This document shows, piece by piece, positions 33,502 to 38,715 of a stretch of 64,000 nt of DNA. A program made the position numbers and the translations under genes. Below the pieces are notes generated by a model, which saw only the letters and a list, made by a program, of their open reading frames with translations, did not search any database and was not told the DNA's origin. The stretch's first letter is position 1. The number at the start of each line of letters is the position of its first letter. Origin of the DNA: Staphylococcus phage BSwM-KMM1; sequence record OP902294.1; one strand, written 5' to 3'.

Positions 33502-33608
33502 AAGAACCTTTCGAGGTTAAAATAAATATACCTCAACATATAAGAGAGGTAACATATAATAATACTGTTGTACTAACCACAGTAAGAGGGAGTAGAGGTG
33601 ACTAATAA

Positions 33609-35291
33609 TTGGCAGATTTATTTAAGCAATTTAGATTAGGTAAGGATTATAGTAACGATACTATTGCACAAGTACCTATTGATGAAGGATTACAAGCTAA
33701 CATAAAGAAAATAGAACAAGATAATAAAGAATACCAAGATATAACTAAGTCCTTATATGGTCAGCAACAAGCTTATGCAGAGCCATTTATTGAAATGATG
33801 GATACTAATCCTGAGTTTAGAGATAAAAGAAGTTATATGAAGAATGAACATAATTTACATGATGTTCTTAAAAGTTTGGTAATAACCCTATTCTTAATGC
33901 TATCATACTTACACGTTCTAATCAAGTAGCTATGTATTGCCAACCGGCAAGATATTCTGAAAAAGGTTTAGGATTTGAAGTTAGGTTACGTGATTTAGAT
34001 GCTGAGCCAGGCAGAAAAGAAAAAGAAGAAATGAAGAGAATCGAAGATTTTATTGTTAATACAGGAAGAGATAAAGATGTAGACAGAGATTCTTTCCAAA
34101 CATTCTGTAAAAAAGTTGTAAGAGATACTTATATATATGACCAAGTTAACTTTGAGAAAGTATTCAATAAAAAAATAAGACTAAATTAGAGAAATTTATA
34201 GCTGTAGACCCTTCTACTATATTCTATGCCACTGATAAAAAGGTAAAATTATTAAAGGTGGAAAACGTTTTGTTCAGGTCGTAGATAAGAGAGTCGTAGC
34301 TAGTTTTACCTCTAGAGAATTAGCAATGGGGATAAGAAACCCAAGAACAGAATTAACATCGTCAGGGTATGGACTATCCGAAGTAGAAATAGCTATGAAA
34401 GAATTTATTGCATATAATAATACAGAATCTTTTAACGATAGATTCTTCTCTCATGGTGGAACTACTAGAGGTATTTTACAGATACGTTCAGACCAACAAC
34501 AATCACAACATGCCCTAGAGAACTTTAAGCGTGAATGGAAGTCTAGTTTATCAGGTATTAATGGCTCATGGCAAATTCCTGTGGTAATGGCAGACGATAT
34601 TAAATTTGTCAATATGACACCAACAGCTAATGATATGCAATTTGAGAAATGGTTAAACTACCTTATTAACATTATATCTGCTTTATATGGTATTGACCCT
34701 GCAGAAATAGGCTTCCCTAATAGAGGAGGAGCTACAGGTTCTAAAGGTGGTTCAACTTTAAACGAAGCTGACCCAGGTAAAAAACAACAACAATCACAAA
34801 ATAAAGGATTACAACCTTTACTTAAATTCATAGAGGATTTAGTAAATAGACACATAGTATCAGAATATGGAGATAAATATACTTTCCAATTTGTTGGTGG
34901 AGATACTAAGAGTGCCACAGATAAACTTAATATCCTTAAACTTGAAACTCAAATATTTAAAACAGTAAATGAAGCTAGAGAAGAGCAAGGTAAGAAACCT
35001 ATTGAAGGCGGAGACATTATTTTAGATGCTTCATTCTTACAAGGAACAGCTCAACTACAACAAGAGAAACAATATGATGACGGTAAACAAAAAGAACGTT
35101 TACAAATGATGATGAGTTTACTAGAAGGAGATAATGAAGACTCCGGAGAAGAGCAATCACAAGGTTCCGATAGTGATAAAGAAATAGGAACAGATGCTCA
35201 GATAAAAGGTGACGATAATGTATATCGTACACAAACATCTAATAAAGGTCAAGGAAGAAAAGGAGAAAAATCTTCTGACTTTAAACATTAA
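33609..35291 (+). CDS. portal protein (about 561 aa), 2 frameshifts (about 33925 and about 34190-34320)
   Basis: three collinear ORFs; position before prohead protease; size fits the roughly 563-aa phage K portal as I recall it. Confidence 0.7.
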
Positions 35292-35296
35292 TAACT

Positions 35297-35332
35297 AAGC
35301 CTAGTTTTATGCTAGGCTTAATTTATTTTTTG
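35297..35332 (+). terminator. rho-independent terminator
   Basis: AAGCCTAG/CTAGGCTT hairpin followed by T-run. Confidence 0.55.
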
Positions 35333-35471: not shown

Positions 35472-36254
35472 ATGGAGGTGCAACCACCTTTGGAAGAAAT
35501 GAAATTTAAAGCTTTTATGAATGTAGATGTAGAGAAATCCACTACTACAGAAAATAAAAGCAATATTATAATTAAAGGTATGGCATCCACTGGTTCTTTG
35601 GACTTAGGTAACGATATAGTAGACCCTAAGGGTATAGATATCAGTTATTTTGTTGACCATGGTTACATAAATGATAACCATGATAAGAATAAAATTATCG
35701 GATACCCAACTAAGAATTGTAGTGTTACCCCTGAAGGTCTTTATGTAGAAGGTGAGCTTTTTAGAGATAATGAAAATGTTCAGAAATACATGGAGCTTGC
35801 AGATAATTTAGAGAAATCTAATAGTGGTAGGAAAGTAGGAATGTCTATAGAAGGTTCTGTGAGAGCTAGAAATAGAAATGATAATAGAGTTATAGAAGCT
35901 ATCCTTATTACAGGATTAGCTTTAACTCCTAATCCTATGAATACTACAGCAACGATAGATACAGTAATTAAATCTTTCTTAACAGGTCATGGTACTTCAC
36001 CTGACACTCAAGAGGATGCAGGAGCTTTAAGAAGAGAAGAACTAGCATCTAGTATTACAAACTTAGCATATGTTACTAAGATTAAAGATTTAAAAGAGTT
36101 TAATGATGTATGGAATGGTGTTGTTGAGGATTTGAGTAAATCTAATAGTATGGGGTATGAGGAATCAGTCCTTACACTACAACTAGCTAAAGGTTTATCT
36201 CGTAAAGATGCAGAACTAGCAGTAATGGATATAAACAAACAAAAACTAGAATAG
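35472..36254 (+). CDS. prohead protease
   Basis: 260 aa between portal and scaffold/MCP; C-terminal segment shares a motif with the MCP N-terminus. Confidence 0.65.
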   Translation: MEVQPPLEEMKFKAFMNVDVEKSTTTENKSNIIIKGMASTGSLDLGNDIVDPKGIDISYFVDHGYINDNHDKNKIIGYPTKNCSVTPEGLYVEGELFRDNENVQKYMELADNLEKSNSGRKVGMSIEGSVRARNRNDNRVIEAILITGLALTPNPMNTTATIDTVIKSFLTGHGTSPDTQEDAGALRREELASSITNLAYVTKIKDLKEFNDVWNGVVEDLSKSNSMGYEESVLTLQLAKGLSRKDAELAVMDINKQKLE

Positions 36255-36273
36255 GTAAGGAGAATACATTCTA

Positions 36274-37209
36274 TGAGTAAAGAAATGAAAAATATTTTAG
36301 AAGAGTATGACAAGTTAAATGCTCACGAGGAAGTTTCGAAATCTGTAGATGAAGATGAAAAAATACAGTAGAAGCTACCGAAGAACAAGTAGCAGAAACA
36401 ACTGAGGAGCCTGCTAAAGAACCTGAAAAGGTTACTGAAGAAGATGCTAAAGAAGCACAAGAGCAAGGTGAAAAAGTTGAGTCTGAAGAGGTGTCTGAAG
36501 AAGACGTTGAGAAATCAACTAAAGAATCTAAAGACCCAGTAGACAAAAAGATACTAAAACAGAAGATAAAGACAACGAGAAACGTAAGAACAAGAAAGAT
36601 AAAGATTCTGACGGAGACGAAGAAGACGAAGATAACGACTCTAAAGATAAAAAAGAAGATAAGAAAGAAAAAACATCTAAATCAATTTCTGATGAAGATA
36701 TCTTAGTCGGATTTAAAACTATTTTGAAATCTTTTGAAAATTTAAATGAAGAGAAAAAGAGTTTGCTACTAAATCTGAAGTTGAAGAATTAAGTAAATCA
36801 ATTAAAGAATTATCAGCTAAACTTGACACTCAAGATAAAGAAGATGTTTCTAAATCAGTAGATAATGCTGAAGATGAAGCTGTAGAAAAATCAGTTACAT
36901 CTACAAATGGGGAACAAGAAAAAGTAGAAGGTTATGTTGCTAAGTCAGTAGATGCTGAAGAACAAGCTGAAACTGGAGAAGCAAAATCAGAAGAAGCTGA
37001 AGCAGTACAAGAAGATAACACATTTAAAGGTTTAAGTCAAGAAGAGAGAACTAAGTTCATGGATGCTTATAAAACACAAGCTAAAGACCCTAGAGCATCT
37101 AAGCATGACTTACAATCAGCATACCAATCTTATTTAAATGTTAACACTGACCCTACTAATGCATCAGAGAAAGATATTAAAACTGTAAAAGACTTTGCAC
37201 AAATTTAAT
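36274..37209 (+). CDS. scaffolding-like highly charged protein (about 310 aa) with multiple frameshifts
   Basis: E/K-rich coiled-coil reading MSKEMKNILEEYDKLNAHEE... continues through several frames to stop at 37209. Confidence 0.5.
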
Positions 37210-37323
37210 TAACATACAAAGTTGTGTTATATTATACGGTGTAACTAAAGAATATAAATAGGGTACATTTTACTGTACCCTACATAAAATAAAAAGAACA
37301 CAAATGAAAGGTGATAAATTTAT

Positions 37324-38715
37324 ATGACTATCGAAAAGAACCTGTCAGACGTTCAACAAAAGTACGCTGACCAATTCCAAGAAGACGTAGTAAAGTCATT
37401 CCAAACTGGTTATGGAATCACTCCTGACACACAAATTGACGCAGGAGCTTTACGTAGAGAAATTTTAGATGACCAAATCACAATGTTAACATGGACTAAT
37501 GAAGACTTAATCTTCTATCGTGATATTTCAAGACGTCCTGCCCAATCAACAGTAGTTAAATATGACCAATATTTACGTCACGGTAACGTAGGTCACTCTC
37601 GTTTCGTTAAAGAAATTGGAGTAGCACCAGTATCTGACCCTAATATCCGTCAAAAAACTGTATCAATGAAATACGTTTCTGATACTAAAAATATGTCAAT
37701 TGCATCAGGTTTAGTAAATAACATTGCTGACCCATCACAAATCCTTACAGAAGATGCTATCGCAGTTGTTGCAAAAACAATTGAGTGGGCTTCATTCTAC
37801 GGTGACGCTTCATTAACTTCTGAAGTTGAAGGTGAAGGTTTAGAGTTTGATGGTTTAGCTAAATTAATTGACAAAAATAACGTGATTAACGCTAAAGGTG
37901 AACAATTAACAGAACGTCACCTAAATGAGGCGACGGTTCGTATCGGTAAAGGTTTCGGTACAGCTACAGATGCTTACATGCCTATCGGTGTACACGCAGA
38001 CTTCGTTAACTCAATCTTAGGTCGTCAAATGCAATTAATGCAAGATAACAGCGGTAACGTTAATACTGGTTACAGTGTAAATGGTTTCTACTCATCTCGT
38101 GGATTCATTAAATTACATGGTTCTACAGTAATGGAAAATGAATTAATCTTAGATGAATCATTACAACCATTACCAAACGCTCCACAACCTGCAAAAGTTT
38201 CAGCTACAGTTGAAACTAAACAAAAAGGTGCTTTCGAAGATGAAGAAGACCGTGCAGGATTATCATATAAAGTAGTAGTTAACTCAGATGACGCTCAATC
38301 AGCTCCTTCTGAAGAAGTAACAGCTACAGTATCTAACGCTGACGATGGTGTTAAATTAACAATTAATGTTAACGCTATGTACCAACAACAACCACAATTC
38401 GTATCTATCTACCGTCAAGGTAAGAAAACAGGTATGTACTTCTTAATCAAACGTGTACCAGTTAAAGATGCTCAAGAAGACGGTTCAATTATTTTCGTAG
38501 ATAAAAACGAAACATTACCTGAAACAGCAGACGTATTCGTTGGTGAAATGTCACCACAAGTAGTTCACTTATTCGAATTACTTCCAATGATGAAATTACC
38601 ATTAGCTCAAATTAATGCTTCTATTACATTTGCAGTATTATGGTATGGTGCATTAGCATTACGTGCTCCTAAAAAATGGGCTCGTATTAAAAACGTTCGT
38701 TATATCGCAGTTTAA
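37324..38715 (+). CDS. major capsid protein
   Basis: 463 aa intact ORF, strong-codon bias, position after protease/scaffold; matches my recollection of the phage K major capsid protein size. Confidence 0.85.
   Translation: MTIEKNLSDVQQKYADQFQEDVVKSFQTGYGITPDTQIDAGALRREILDDQITMLTWTNEDLIFYRDISRRPAQSTVVKYDQYLRHGNVGHSRFVKEIGVAPVSDPNIRQKTVSMKYVSDTKNMSIASGLVNNIADPSQILTEDAIAVVAKTIEWASFYGDASLTSEVEGEGLEFDGLAKLIDKNNVINAKGEQLTERHLNEATVRIGKGFGTATDAYMPIGVHADFVNSILGRQMQLMQDNSGNVNTGYSVNGFYSSRGFIKLHGSTVMENELILDESLQPLPNAPQPAKVSATVETKQKGAFEDEEDRAGLSYKVVVNSDDAQSAPSEEVTATVSNADDGVKLTINVNAMYQQQPQFVSIYRQGKKTGMYFLIKRVPVKDAQEDGSIIFVDKNETLPETADVFVGEMSPQVVHLFELLPMMKLPLAQINASITFAVLWYGALALRAPKKWARIKNVRYIAV

What the first reader, a model, noticed from the sequence alone, without database searches (positions are those of the whole stretch)
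35960..37470. Prohead protease C-terminus and major capsid N-terminus share a 34-aa near-identical segment
The protease has VIKSFLTGHGTSPDTQEDAGALRREELASSITNL and the MCP has VVKSFQTGYGITPDTQIDAGALRREILDDQITML, about 70% identical, both about 20-55 residues from a terminus. The similarity is visible at the nucleotide level too (CCTGACAC..CA..GCAGGAGCTTTA.G.AGAGAA). It probably marks the maturation cleavage or recognition site used both for protease autoprocessing and removal of the capsid propeptide. It could also be a shared capsid-interior targeting peptide.
Basis: seen in the sequence. Interest (0 to 1): 0.55.

Follow-up and report, generated by a model that had tools for sequence, protein, structure and literature searches.

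The report
Head protease carries capsid-protein N-arm copy
In this Staphylococcus phage K-like genome, and in every sampled relative in its family, the head-maturation protease carries a roughly 30-residue copy of the capsid protein's N-terminal arm just after a shared cutting site, which probably docks the protease inside the immature head, although that role is untested.

Summary
Protease aa 165-198 and capsid protein (MCP) aa 22-55 share 23/34 residues (BLASTP E=1e-11 over 49 aa). The pair occurs in all 97 Herelleviridae-type loci examined, and in no other protein class among 1.84 billion representative proteins.

The segment has two parts.

- **Cutting motif.** A short motif, E/D-x-[VIL]-x-K|S, forms its N-terminal edge. 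PDB 9ROW's MCP chain starts at S25, and phage K virion mass spectrometry finds no peptide from aa 1-24. This K-S is the only one in the 463-aa MCP. The same motif recurs 3-14 times per scaffold-like protein (109 observed vs 10 expected in 15 phages), always without the downstream similarity.
- **N-arm module.** About 30 residues (MCP 26-57) stay on the mature MCP. The protease's copy follows its S78 catalytic domain directly and is modelled as disordered.

The two copies co-vary within phages (matched pairs 50.5% identical, mismatched 42.3%, p&lt;=5e-6). Synonymous sites show no excess identity, so selection on the protein maintains them rather than gene conversion.

My best reading is an N-arm mimic that recruits the protease into the procapsid and is followed by release cleavage. 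The main rival is an extended substrate-recognition element. I rate it a new variant of a known kind, of moderate interest.

The parts
35472..36254 (+). Prohead (head-maturation) protease gene, 260 aa, Peptidase_S78 / herpesvirus-assemblin fold
   Evidence: ORF. PHROG head maturation protease, 1e-139. Listeria and SPO1 orthologues pass the Pfam PF04586 gathering score, and many homologues carry a precomputed PF04586 hit. In the AF2 model, residues 29-166 have pLDDT mostly above 90. Top Foldseek hits are herpesvirus proteases and T4 gp21. H70 and S125 (GxSxEG) are invariant.
35523..35540 (+). Candidate N-terminal autoprocessing site of the protease (V18-D-V-E-K22|S23), in the disordered leader before the catalytic core
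   Evidence: D19, K22 and S23 are at least 90% conserved in 30 homologues. Residues 1-28 have pLDDT below 50. The site fits the V/I/L-x-K-S motif. Cleavage is inferred.
35958..35975 (+). Protease copy of the cleavage motif (D163-T-V-I-K167|S168) at the C-terminal boundary of the S78 domain; candidate release site
   Evidence: K167 and S168 are invariant in 30 homologues. The last core beta-strand is 161-166. The corresponding K of the Listeria orthologue (K170) and K159 of HK97 gp4 both map to Pfam S78 profile position 157. Cleavage here is inferred.
35976..36071 (+). Protease copy of the MCP N-arm module (aa 169-200, FLTGHGTSPDTQEDAGALRREELASSITNLAYV)
   Evidence: BLASTP 1e-11 to MCP aa 22-68. 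The segment HMM scores 70 bits. Residues 168-195 have pLDDT below 50, and a helix spans 188-202. Conservation is 0.47, close to the catalytic core at 0.52 and well above the C-terminal domain at 0.28.
36072..36251 (+). C-terminal helical domain of the protease (aa 201-260)
   Evidence: AF2 models helices 207-222, 229-240 and 244-259 at pLDDT 62-76. The LQLxKGxSR motif is conserved. It is the least conserved part of the protein. The function is not tested.
36273..37208 (+). Scaffold-like acidic protein gene (orthologue of phage K gp174, 316 aa). In this window it is broken by three 1-nt deletions. The orthologues carry many V/I/L-x-K-S motifs.
   Evidence: Alignment to phage K. PHROG 1133, unknown function. 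V/I/L-x-K-S occurs 109 times against 10.2 expected in 15 phages (contexts). Peptides of the K orthologue are detected in virions. The scaffold role is inferred from position, composition and motif content.
37324..38715 (+). Major capsid protein gene, 463 aa
   Evidence: About 98% identical to the phage 812 MCP of PDB 5LII. PHROG major head protein, 3e-219.
37324..37395 (+). MCP propeptide (aa 1-24), removed on maturation
   Evidence: The 9ROW chain starts at S25. No peptide from aa 1-24 appears in phage K virion LC-MS/MS. It is the least conserved MCP region, at 0.15.
37381..37398 (+). MCP cleavage motif E20-D-V-V-K24|S25
   Evidence: E20 and K24 are invariant in 30 MCPs. This is the only K-S dipeptide in the MCP. 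The 9ROW N-terminus is S25. It has the same P1/P1' as HK97 K103/S104.
37399..37494 (+). MCP N-arm module (aa 26-57), retained in the mature capsid protein
   Evidence: The tryptic peptide aa 25-44 is one of the three intense MCP peptides highlighted in the phage K virion digest. It is among the most conserved MCP regions, at 0.63. It co-varies with the protease copy.

Best explanation
The shared segment has two parts.

**Part 1: a short cleavage motif.** The motif is acidic-x-V/I/L-x-K|S and is read by the phage's own S78 (HK97/herpesvirus-type) prohead protease. It occurs once in the MCP (K24|S25, removing a 24-residue propeptide). It occurs at both ends of the protease catalytic core (K22|S23 and K167|S168). 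It also occurs many times in the scaffold-like protein.

[quoted passage not shown] The protease carries a copy of it immediately after its catalytic domain.

**Most likely mechanism (inferred).** In the procapsid the protease presents this N-arm mimic to whatever holds the real MCP N-arm on the inner shell surface. That partner could be the scaffold protein's capsid-binding end, the MCP spine-helix/P-domain surface, or another N-arm. The protease is thereby co-assembled inside the shell. Cleavage at K167|S168 then frees the catalytic core to digest the scaffold and trim the MCP.

**Shown.** The similarity itself, its family-wide conservation and its restriction to these two proteins. The module's retention in the mature MCP. 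Covariation without synonymous similarity. The motif's enrichment in scaffold-like proteins.

**Inferred.** That the scaffold and protease K-S sites are cut, and that the module is a docking element.
For: - **Real and family-wide.** BLASTP E=1e-11, with PHROG cross-hits. Both copies are present wherever both genes lie within the locus (89 of 97 loci, spanning Twortvirinae, Jasinkavirinae, Brockvirinae, Bastillevirinae, Spounavirinae and Lactobacillus phages). There are exactly two carriers per locus and two in the whole 64-kb window.
- **No third carrier class.** A profile of the two window segments, searched against 1.84e9 representative proteins, finds only 29 hits. These are proteases, MCPs, fragments and two repeat artefacts.
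- **Retained side of the cut.** The 9ROW chain starts at S25. The aa 25-44 peptide is prominent in virions and none is seen from aa 1-24.
- **The module is not needed to define a cut site.** V/I/L-x-K-S occurs 109 times against 10.2 expected in 15 scaffold-like proteins, with P5 acidic and P3 V/I/L as in the MCP and protease. HK97 gp5 has 4 K-S dipeptides, all in the removed delta domain.
- **Selection on the protein.** Matched protease/MCP pairs are 50.5% identical against 42.3% for mismatched pairs, p<=5e-6 on 17 non-redundant pairs. SPO1, Semele and L099 show lineage-specific shared variants. Synonymous codon identity is 140 against 138 expected.
- **Constraint on the protease copy.** It is as conserved as the catalytic core (0.47 vs 0.52), whereas the following domain is at 0.28. 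It is modelled as disordered in isolation, followed by a helix, as expected for a bind-and-fold element.
- **Precedent.** In 80alpha, P22 and phi29 procapsids the scaffold end contacts an MCP N-arm helix on the inner surface.
- **Independent swapping.** Relative to phage K, the catalytic core between the two K-S sites has been exchanged (52-67% nt identity). The module and everything downstream, including the MCP, stay at 92-98%.
Against: - No structure, interaction or proteomic data for the protease were available. Cleavage at K167|S168, and of the scaffold K-S sites, is inferred from motif conservation only.
- In one metagenomic relative (P0179/L099) the protease is already fused to a scaffold-like tail yet keeps the module. 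That is not what one expects if the module's only job were to bind scaffold.
- The covariation test keeps column composition but cannot fully exclude lineage-specific amino-acid biases or ancient gene-conversion events whose synonymous trace has decayed.
- The AF2 MCP model was unusable (pLDDT 48), so I did not verify the N-arm's conformation and contacts.
- 9ROW's truncated sequence is a depositor's choice, not a direct N-terminal sequence. The mass-spectrometry peptide is tryptic, so on its own it does not prove the N-terminus.
Confidence: 0.45

Rival explanations
1. Extended substrate-recognition element. The ~30 residues downstream of K|S bind an exosite on the protease catalytic domain. 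This marks the two precise processing sites (MCP maturation site and protease release site) for efficient or early cleavage, whereas the scaffold's bare K-S sites are merely degradative. The similarity then exists because both are substrates of one enzyme.
For: - The cut site abuts the module in both proteins, and K/S are invariant.
- Covariation would also follow from co-evolution with one enzyme surface.
- The module is kept at the protease/scaffold junction in the fused protein P0179, as expected of a release site.
- In HK97 and D3 the region after the cut site is flexible in Prohead 1, which is thought to expose the site to the protease.
Against: - The scaffold-like proteins carry about ten-fold enriched V/I/L-x-K-S sites with the same P5/P3 pattern and no module.
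- HK97, with the same family and the same K|S specificity, shows no such similarity between gp4 and gp5.
- AF2 gives no confident docking of the tethered module onto the core (pLDDT below 50).
- The catalytic core has been swapped for a variant only 52-67% identical in DNA, while the module and MCP stayed the same.
- Conservation of the module in the MCP is already explained by its structural role in the capsid.
Confidence: 0.3
2. Autoinhibitory pseudo-substrate (zymogen latch). The tethered MCP-like segment occupies the protease's own substrate groove until assembly concentrates the enzyme. Trans-cleavage at K167|S168 then activates it.
For: - A substrate-like sequence is covalently attached right after the catalytic domain.
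- Prohead proteases must stay silent before shell closure. This rests on established knowledge of HK97 and T4 assembly and was not tested here.
Against: - The AF2 monomer model leaves the segment undocked at low confidence.
- A latch needs only the few residues around the scissile bond, not 30 conserved residues with a helix.
- There are no data on activity of full-length versus truncated enzyme.
Confidence: 0.1
3. Evolutionary relic or sequence homogenisation. A partial duplication of the 5' end of the MCP gene landed in the protease gene and persists, or is kept similar by gene conversion, without a shared function.
For: - Relative to HK97 gp4, the module looks like an insertion directly after the conserved K-S at Pfam S78 profile position 157.
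- The two genes lie about 1.4 kb apart on the same strand.
Against: - There is no excess synonymous identity (140 vs 138 expected), so there has been no recent conversion.
- The protease copy is conserved about as well as the catalytic core across subfamilies whose proteases are only 34-45% identical.
- The copies co-vary at the protein level.
- A duplication origin is likely, but a neutral relic would have decayed.
Confidence: 0.05

Closest known systems
Herpesvirus assemblin precursor (pUL26 / UL26.5 in HSV-1): protease - release (R) site - scaffold - maturation (M) site - MCP-binding tail
   Same: The catalytic fold is homologous; the top Foldseek hits are HCMV, PRV, KSHV, HSV and EBV proteases. 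An autoprocessing-type site sits directly after the catalytic domain. The site grammar is similar, with a hydrophobic P3 and Ser at P1' (herpes consensus V/L/I-x-A|S, from established knowledge). The protease enters the procapsid because it shares sequence with another assembly protein.
   Different: In herpesviruses the shared sequence is the scaffold and its C-terminal MCP-binding tail, produced from nested in-frame genes. Here the shared sequence is a paralogous copy of the MCP's own retained N-arm, in a separate gene. P1 is Lys rather than Ala.
HK97 gp4 protease / gp5 capsid protein (Peptidase_S78, K103|S104 cleavage; C-terminal part of gp4 implicated in encapsidation, Duda et al. 2013, cited but not read)
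   Same: The same Pfam family applies, since orthologues pass PF04586. P1/P1' is the same K|S. The K-S at the end of the catalytic domain maps to the same profile position, 157. K-S dipeptides are confined to the parts that are removed.
   Different: HK97 uses a 103-residue scaffold (delta) domain fused to the MCP and has no separate scaffold gene. gp4 shows no N-arm-like module after its K-S. The Herelleviridae MCP propeptide is only about 24 residues long.
Staphylococcus phage 80alpha capsid and scaffolding proteins, which share an N-terminal motif at the Prp cleavage site (also shared with ribosomal protein L27)
   Same: Two head-assembly proteins of one phage share a conserved sequence around a maturation cut. 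The N-arm helix of the capsid protein contacts the scaffold C-terminal helix in the procapsid.
   Different: Cleavage is by a host protease (Prp), at F|A. The shared motif is short and lies mainly on the removed side. The sharing is between capsid and scaffold proteins, not between capsid protein and protease.
Phage T4 gp21 protease with capsid-targeting sequences, and the P1 DarB N-terminal targeting signal
   Same: Short peptides direct proteins into the prohead interior and are removed by the prohead protease. T4 gp21 appears among the fold matches.
   Different: T4 and P1 targeting peptides sit at the N-terminus of cargo proteins and are not copies of a capsid-protein segment. T4 cuts at L/I-x-E (established knowledge).

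Membership tests
Peptidase_S78 (HK97-type caudovirus prohead serine protease; herpesvirus assemblin fold) | Match to Pfam PF04586 above the gathering score | tested here: inconclusive
   The window protein itself gives no Pfam hit even at E<=10. Its Listeria (45% identical) and SPO1 (37% identical) orthologues pass (23.4 and 23.8 bits against a cut-off of 21). Many homologues carry a precomputed PF04586 hit.
Peptidase_S78 (HK97-type caudovirus prohead serine protease; herpesvirus assemblin fold) | Assemblin-like beta-barrel fold | tested here: met
   The AF2 core 29-166 has pLDDT mostly above 90. The top 48 Foldseek PDB hits are herpesvirus proteases (best E=1.8e-4, prob 1.0), and T4 gp21 is also recovered. 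TM-scores are low (about 0.35) because the disordered and helical tails are included.
Peptidase_S78 (HK97-type caudovirus prohead serine protease; herpesvirus assemblin fold) | Conserved catalytic His and Ser | tested here: met
   H70 and S125 (G123-x-S125-x-E127-G128) are invariant in 30 homologues. A catalytic role is inferred from family knowledge and was not assayed.
Peptidase_S78 (HK97-type caudovirus prohead serine protease; herpesvirus assemblin fold) | Gene placed between the portal and capsid genes of a tailed phage | tested here: met
   The order portal - protease - scaffold-like - MCP holds in the window and in 16 of the 17 annotated relatives. In LfeInf the MCP is upstream.
HK97-fold major capsid protein (Herelleviridae / SU10_MCP PF17236 group) | Sequence identity to a structurally solved HK97-fold MCP | tested here: met
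   It aligns full-length at about 98% identity to phage 812 MCP 5LII, and aa 25-463 align to 9ROW; SPO1 gp6.1 (9VEL) matches at 1.8e-52. My own AF2 model was unusable (pLDDT 48). The window protein itself has no Pfam hit, but several homologues carry PF17236.
HK97-fold major capsid protein (Herelleviridae / SU10_MCP PF17236 group) | N-terminal propeptide removed by the phage protease, leaving an N-arm | tested here: met
   This is indirect. The 9ROW chain starts at S25. No peptide from aa 1-24 appears in virion mass spectrometry, while aa 25-44 is prominent. That residues 26-57 form the N-arm is inferred from their position in the fold; coordinates were not inspected.
Shared-sequence protease encapsidation (herpes UL26/UL26.5-like logic) | The protease shares a segment with another procapsid protein | tested here: met
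Shared-sequence protease encapsidation (herpes UL26/UL26.5-like logic) | The shared segment is required for incorporation of the protease into procapsids | not testable with these tools
   This needs deletion or swap mutants and prohead composition analysis, or multimer structure prediction, which was not available.
Shared-sequence protease encapsidation (herpes UL26/UL26.5-like logic) | Autocleavage between the catalytic domain and the shared segment | not testable with these tools
   Only the invariant K167-S168 and the motif match are available. No proteomic evidence on protease fragments was found.

The most novel reading that the evidence does not exclude
Herelleviridae recruit their maturation protease by molecular mimicry of the capsid protein itself. 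The protease carries a co-evolving copy of the MCP N-arm. That copy binds the same procapsid partner as the real N-arm, or pairs with real N-arms. Each protease is thereby placed beside its substrates, and the copy is cut off at the same K|S motif that trims the MCP. This would be a previously undescribed way of encapsidating a prohead protease in phages whose scaffold is a separate protein. It would also offer a portable tag for loading cargo into these therapeutic phage heads.
Probability: 0.4. Interest if true: 0.65.

Novelty: new variant of a known kind. Interest (0 to 1): 0.5.

Why it matters
How HK97-type proteases get inside procapsids is understood for only a few model systems. In HK97 a C-terminal tail binds the delta domain. 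In herpesviruses, lambda and P2 the protease shares sequence with the scaffold.

Kayvirus and other Herelleviridae phages (K, 812, ISP, A511/P100, phiEF24C) are leading therapeutic and biocontrol phages, yet their head assembly is little studied.

A conserved, co-evolving copy of the MCP N-arm on the protease gives a concrete and cheaply testable hypothesis for protease recruitment and release. It also defines the likely cleavage grammar (acidic-x-V/I/L-x-K|S) for the whole family, which helps interpret virion proteomics and cryo-EM maps. If the module is a docking tag, it could be used to load foreign proteins into these capsids.

Tried and rejected
- **AF2 model of the MCP.** A 30-sequence alignment gave pLDDT 48, confident only for the insertion domain. 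It was unusable for the N-arm.
- **Literature on the mature N-terminus.** Look-ups by id for the phage 812 capsid paper (2016) and the Listeria A511 cps paper (1995) failed; neither is held. The 812 neck paper has nothing on MCP processing. The ISP virion proteome paper does not mention the protease. Full-text searches for the PDB codes and for N-terminal peptide strings of K, A511, Twort, SPO1 and LP65-type MCPs returned only the phage K MALDI paper. Duda et al. 2013 is not held.
- **Gene conversion.** Rejected: there is no synonymous excess.
- **A third protein carrying the module.** None was found in the 64-kb window, in 97 loci with flanks of 4-6 kb, or among 1.84e9 representatives. P0182 and P0183 are repeat artefacts.
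- **Similarity of the protease C-terminus to the scaffold-like protein.** This would be the herpes/lambda-style arrangement. None was found.
- **A module in HK97 gp4.** Absent.
- **An internal start codon just before K-S making a separate C-terminal protein.** An M at P2 is common in relatives, but it is I166 in this window, so I did not pursue it.
Full report
**What the window is.**
The region belongs to a Kayvirus-like Staphylococcus myophage (Herelleviridae, Twortvirinae). The best DNA match is Staphylococcus phage PG-2021_19 at 99.1%; phage K matches at 92.8% over 87% of the query. The gene order is portal, prohead protease (35472-36254, 260 aa), an acidic scaffold-like gene (36273-37208), and the major capsid protein, MCP (37324-38715, 463 aa).

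**Checking the observation.**
- They share 23/34 residues. BLASTP extends the match to 49 aa at E=1e-11 for the single comparison.
- Profile searches agree. The protease hits the PHROG major-head-protein family at aa 157-212 (7e-8), and the MCP hits the PHROG protease family at aa 20-58 (3e-15).
- Two details need correcting. The protease copy lies 62-95 residues from the C-terminus, not 20-55. The nucleotide similarity is only what amino-acid identity and codon bias predict: identical codons at identical residues number 13 against 10.9 expected in the window, and 140 against 138 over 16 phages.

**How widespread it is.**
- I fetched 17 annotated relatives across the family: K, 812, Sepunavirus, Silviavirus, Baoshanvirus, a Twort-like phage, Listeria Pecentumvirus, Enterococcus Brockvirinae, several Bastillevirinae, SPO1-like, and Lactobacillus Semele and LfeInf. 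I added 80 IMG/VR loci.
- An HMM of the segment finds exactly two carriers, the protease at about aa 165-230 and the MCP at about aa 20-90, in every locus that contains both genes (89 of 97) and in the whole 64-kb window.
- A profile of the two window segments, searched against 1.84 billion representative proteins, gives only 29 hits at E<=1e-3. These are proteases, MCPs, contig-end fragments and two repeat artefacts. The module is confined to these two proteins of this phage lineage.

**Where the capsid protein is cut.**
- PDB 9ROW/9ROX/9ROZ list the phage 812 MCP as a 439-residue chain starting at S25, whereas 5LII lists all 463 residues.
- In an LC-MS/MS peptide list of phage K virions, the most N-terminal MCP peptide is (K)SFQTGYGITPDTQIDAGALR, aa 25-44. 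It is one of the three intense MCP peptides highlighted in the MALDI spectrum. Nothing comes from aa 1-24, although YADQFQEDVVK would be a good tryptic peptide.
- E20 and K24 are invariant in 30 MCPs. K24-S25 is the only K-S dipeptide in the 463-residue protein.
- HK97, whose protease belongs to the same family, cuts its capsid protein at K103/S104 (PMC10275583).
The true propeptide (aa 1-19) is the least conserved part of the MCP (0.15 mean pairwise identity). The module is among the most conserved parts (0.63).

**A short cleavage grammar, separate from the long similarity.**
- The scaffold-like protein between the two genes carries 6-20 K-S dipeptides in each of 15 phages.
- The motif V/I/L/M/F-x-K-S occurs 109 times against 10.2 expected from shuffles. 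That is 2.3 per 100 aa, against 0.34 in the neighbouring proteins.
- P5 is usually E or D and P3 is V, I or L. This is the pattern in the MCP (E20-D-V-V-K|S) and in the protease (D163-T-V-I-K167|S168; E-S-F-M-K|S in most relatives).
- The protease also has a near-invariant V-D-V-E-K22-S23 in its disordered N-terminal leader.
- In HK97 gp5, all four K-S dipeptides lie in the removed delta domain. In HK97 gp4, all four lie at or after the end of the catalytic domain.
- K159 of HK97 gp4 and K170 of the Listeria orthologue both map to Pfam S78 profile position 157. A K-S at the C-terminal boundary of the S78 domain is therefore ancient.
- None of the scaffold sites carries the 30-residue module, so the long similarity is not needed to define a cut site. 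That these sites are actually cut is an inference.

**The protease.**
- The window protein itself has no Pfam hit. Its Listeria and SPO1 orthologues pass the Peptidase_S78 threshold, and many homologues carry a precomputed PF04586 hit.
- The AF2 model has a confident core at aa 29-166, whose last strand is 161-166. Residues 168-195 are low-confidence, a helix spans 188-202, and a helical C-terminal domain follows at moderate confidence.
- Foldseek returns herpesvirus proteases and T4 gp21. H70 and S125 are invariant.
- The module starts exactly where the catalytic domain ends and looks like a flexible, bind-and-fold element.
- It is about as conserved as the catalytic core (0.47 vs 0.52). The domain after it is not (0.28).
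- HK97 gp4 has no counterpart of the module, so relative to HK97 it looks like an insertion directly after the K-S.

**Co-evolution.**
- On 17 non-redundant protease/MCP pairs, the two copies from the same phage are 50.5% identical, against 42.3% for copies from different phages (permutation p<=5e-6; first pass).
- If the two copies had evolved independently since an old duplication, same-phage pairs should be no more alike than cross-phage pairs.
- Lineage-specific shared variants are easy to see:
  - SPO1: LEAGH..GGGAFRVESL in the MCP and LEAGY..GGDVFRKESL in the protease.
  - Semele: AFVAGTG..DGAALRLESM and AFMAGTG..DGGALRPESM.
  - L091, L066 and the metagenomic L099 (LSTG..GGGALR.ES in both) show the same thing.
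- Synonymous sites show no excess identity. The likeness is therefore kept by selection on the protein, which implies a shared partner or a self-complementary contact, rather than recent gene conversion.

**Mechanism.**
- In 80alpha, P22 and phi29 procapsids, one end of the scaffold contacts an MCP N-arm helix lying against the spine helix on the inner surface. The N-arm re-orients on maturation (PMC12749128; PMC5744158).
- My preferred reading is that the protease presents an N-arm mimic to the same partner and is thereby built into the procapsid. Cleavage at K167|S168 then frees the catalytic core, as the release site does in the homologous herpesvirus protease.
- One further observation points the same way. 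Relative to phage K, the catalytic core between the two K-S sites has been replaced by a divergent version (52-67% DNA identity at 35520-35990). The module, the C-terminal domain and the MCP stay at 92-98%. The module thus travels with the capsid side rather than with the enzyme.
- The main rival is that the module is an extended recognition element for the two precise processing sites. The metagenomic protein P0179 gives this some weight. There the protease core, the K|S site and the module are followed by a scaffold-like tail in one polypeptide, so the module is kept even though fusion to scaffold should already ensure encapsidation.
- A pseudo-substrate latch and a neutral relic are less likely.
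- I could not run multimer predictions, and I found no proteomic data on protease fragments. The mechanism therefore stays inferred. I put 0.45 on docking plus release, 0.30 on recognition only, 0.10 on a latch and 0.05 on a relic.

**Comparison with known systems and novelty.**
- The logic resembles two known cases. In herpesvirus pUL26/UL26.5, the protease shares sequence with a procapsid partner and releases itself at a site after the catalytic domain. In 80alpha, the capsid and scaffold proteins share a motif at their cleavage site.
- It belongs to the HK97 S78 world in enzyme family and K|S specificity.
- The difference is that the shared piece is a paralogous, co-evolving copy of the MCP's retained N-arm, carried by the protease.
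- I rate it a new variant of a known kind, of moderate interest (0.5). It is a family-wide feature that yields a specific, testable model for protease recruitment in an important group of therapeutic phages.

Noticed in passing
window 36273-37208 (about 36362, 36544 and 36762): The scaffold-like gene (orthologue of phage K gp174) is broken by three single-base deletions relative to phage K, two of them in or next to A-runs. They look like sequencing or assembly errors rather than biology. The ORF listing shows only fragments here.
   Followed up: partly
window 33600-35300 (33869, 34174, 34237): The portal gene is split into several ORFs by 1-nt deletions relative to phage K, mostly next to A-runs. 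K itself annotates the portal as two CDS. The window sequence appears error-prone at homopolymers. The protease and MCP ORFs are intact.
   Followed up: partly
window 35520-35990: There is a mosaic block. DNA identity to phage K falls from about 95% to 52-67% across the protease catalytic core, then returns to 92-98% from 35991 onward. The block edges lie close to the two conserved K-S sites (K22|S23 and K167|S168), as if the catalytic core had been exchanged as a cassette between Twortvirinae lineages.
   Followed up: partly
scaffold-like proteins of L001-L017 (e.g. L001:3881-4831): V/I/L-x-K-S motifs, usually with an acidic P5, are about ten-fold enriched (109 vs 10.2 expected in 15 phages). 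This probably defines the protease's cleavage grammar and predicts that the scaffold is chopped into roughly 10-40-residue peptides. Two peptides of the K orthologue were nevertheless detected in virions (PMC5258805, Table S1).
   Followed up: yes
L099:6001-7353 (P0179) and L099:7416-8852: A metagenomic relative encodes protease core, K|S site, N-arm module and a scaffold-like tail as a single 450-aa protein. The MCP gene follows directly, with no separate scaffold gene. Its MCP carries the matching lineage-specific module variant.
   Followed up: partly
L098 (HK97): gp4 aa 20-45 vs gp5 aa 90-118: A marginal similarity (14/31 identical, E=0.018 for the single comparison) links the N-terminus of the HK97 protease to the gp5 stretch spanning the K103/S104 cut (DGKQG...DS.G..I.P). 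It may be chance and was not examined further.
   Followed up: no
window 36129-36146 (protease aa 220-225, D-L-S-K-S-N): A third V/I/L-x-K-S-type site sits between two helices of the protease C-terminal domain. It is conserved in Twortvirinae but absent in the Listeria and Bacillus relatives.
   Followed up: no
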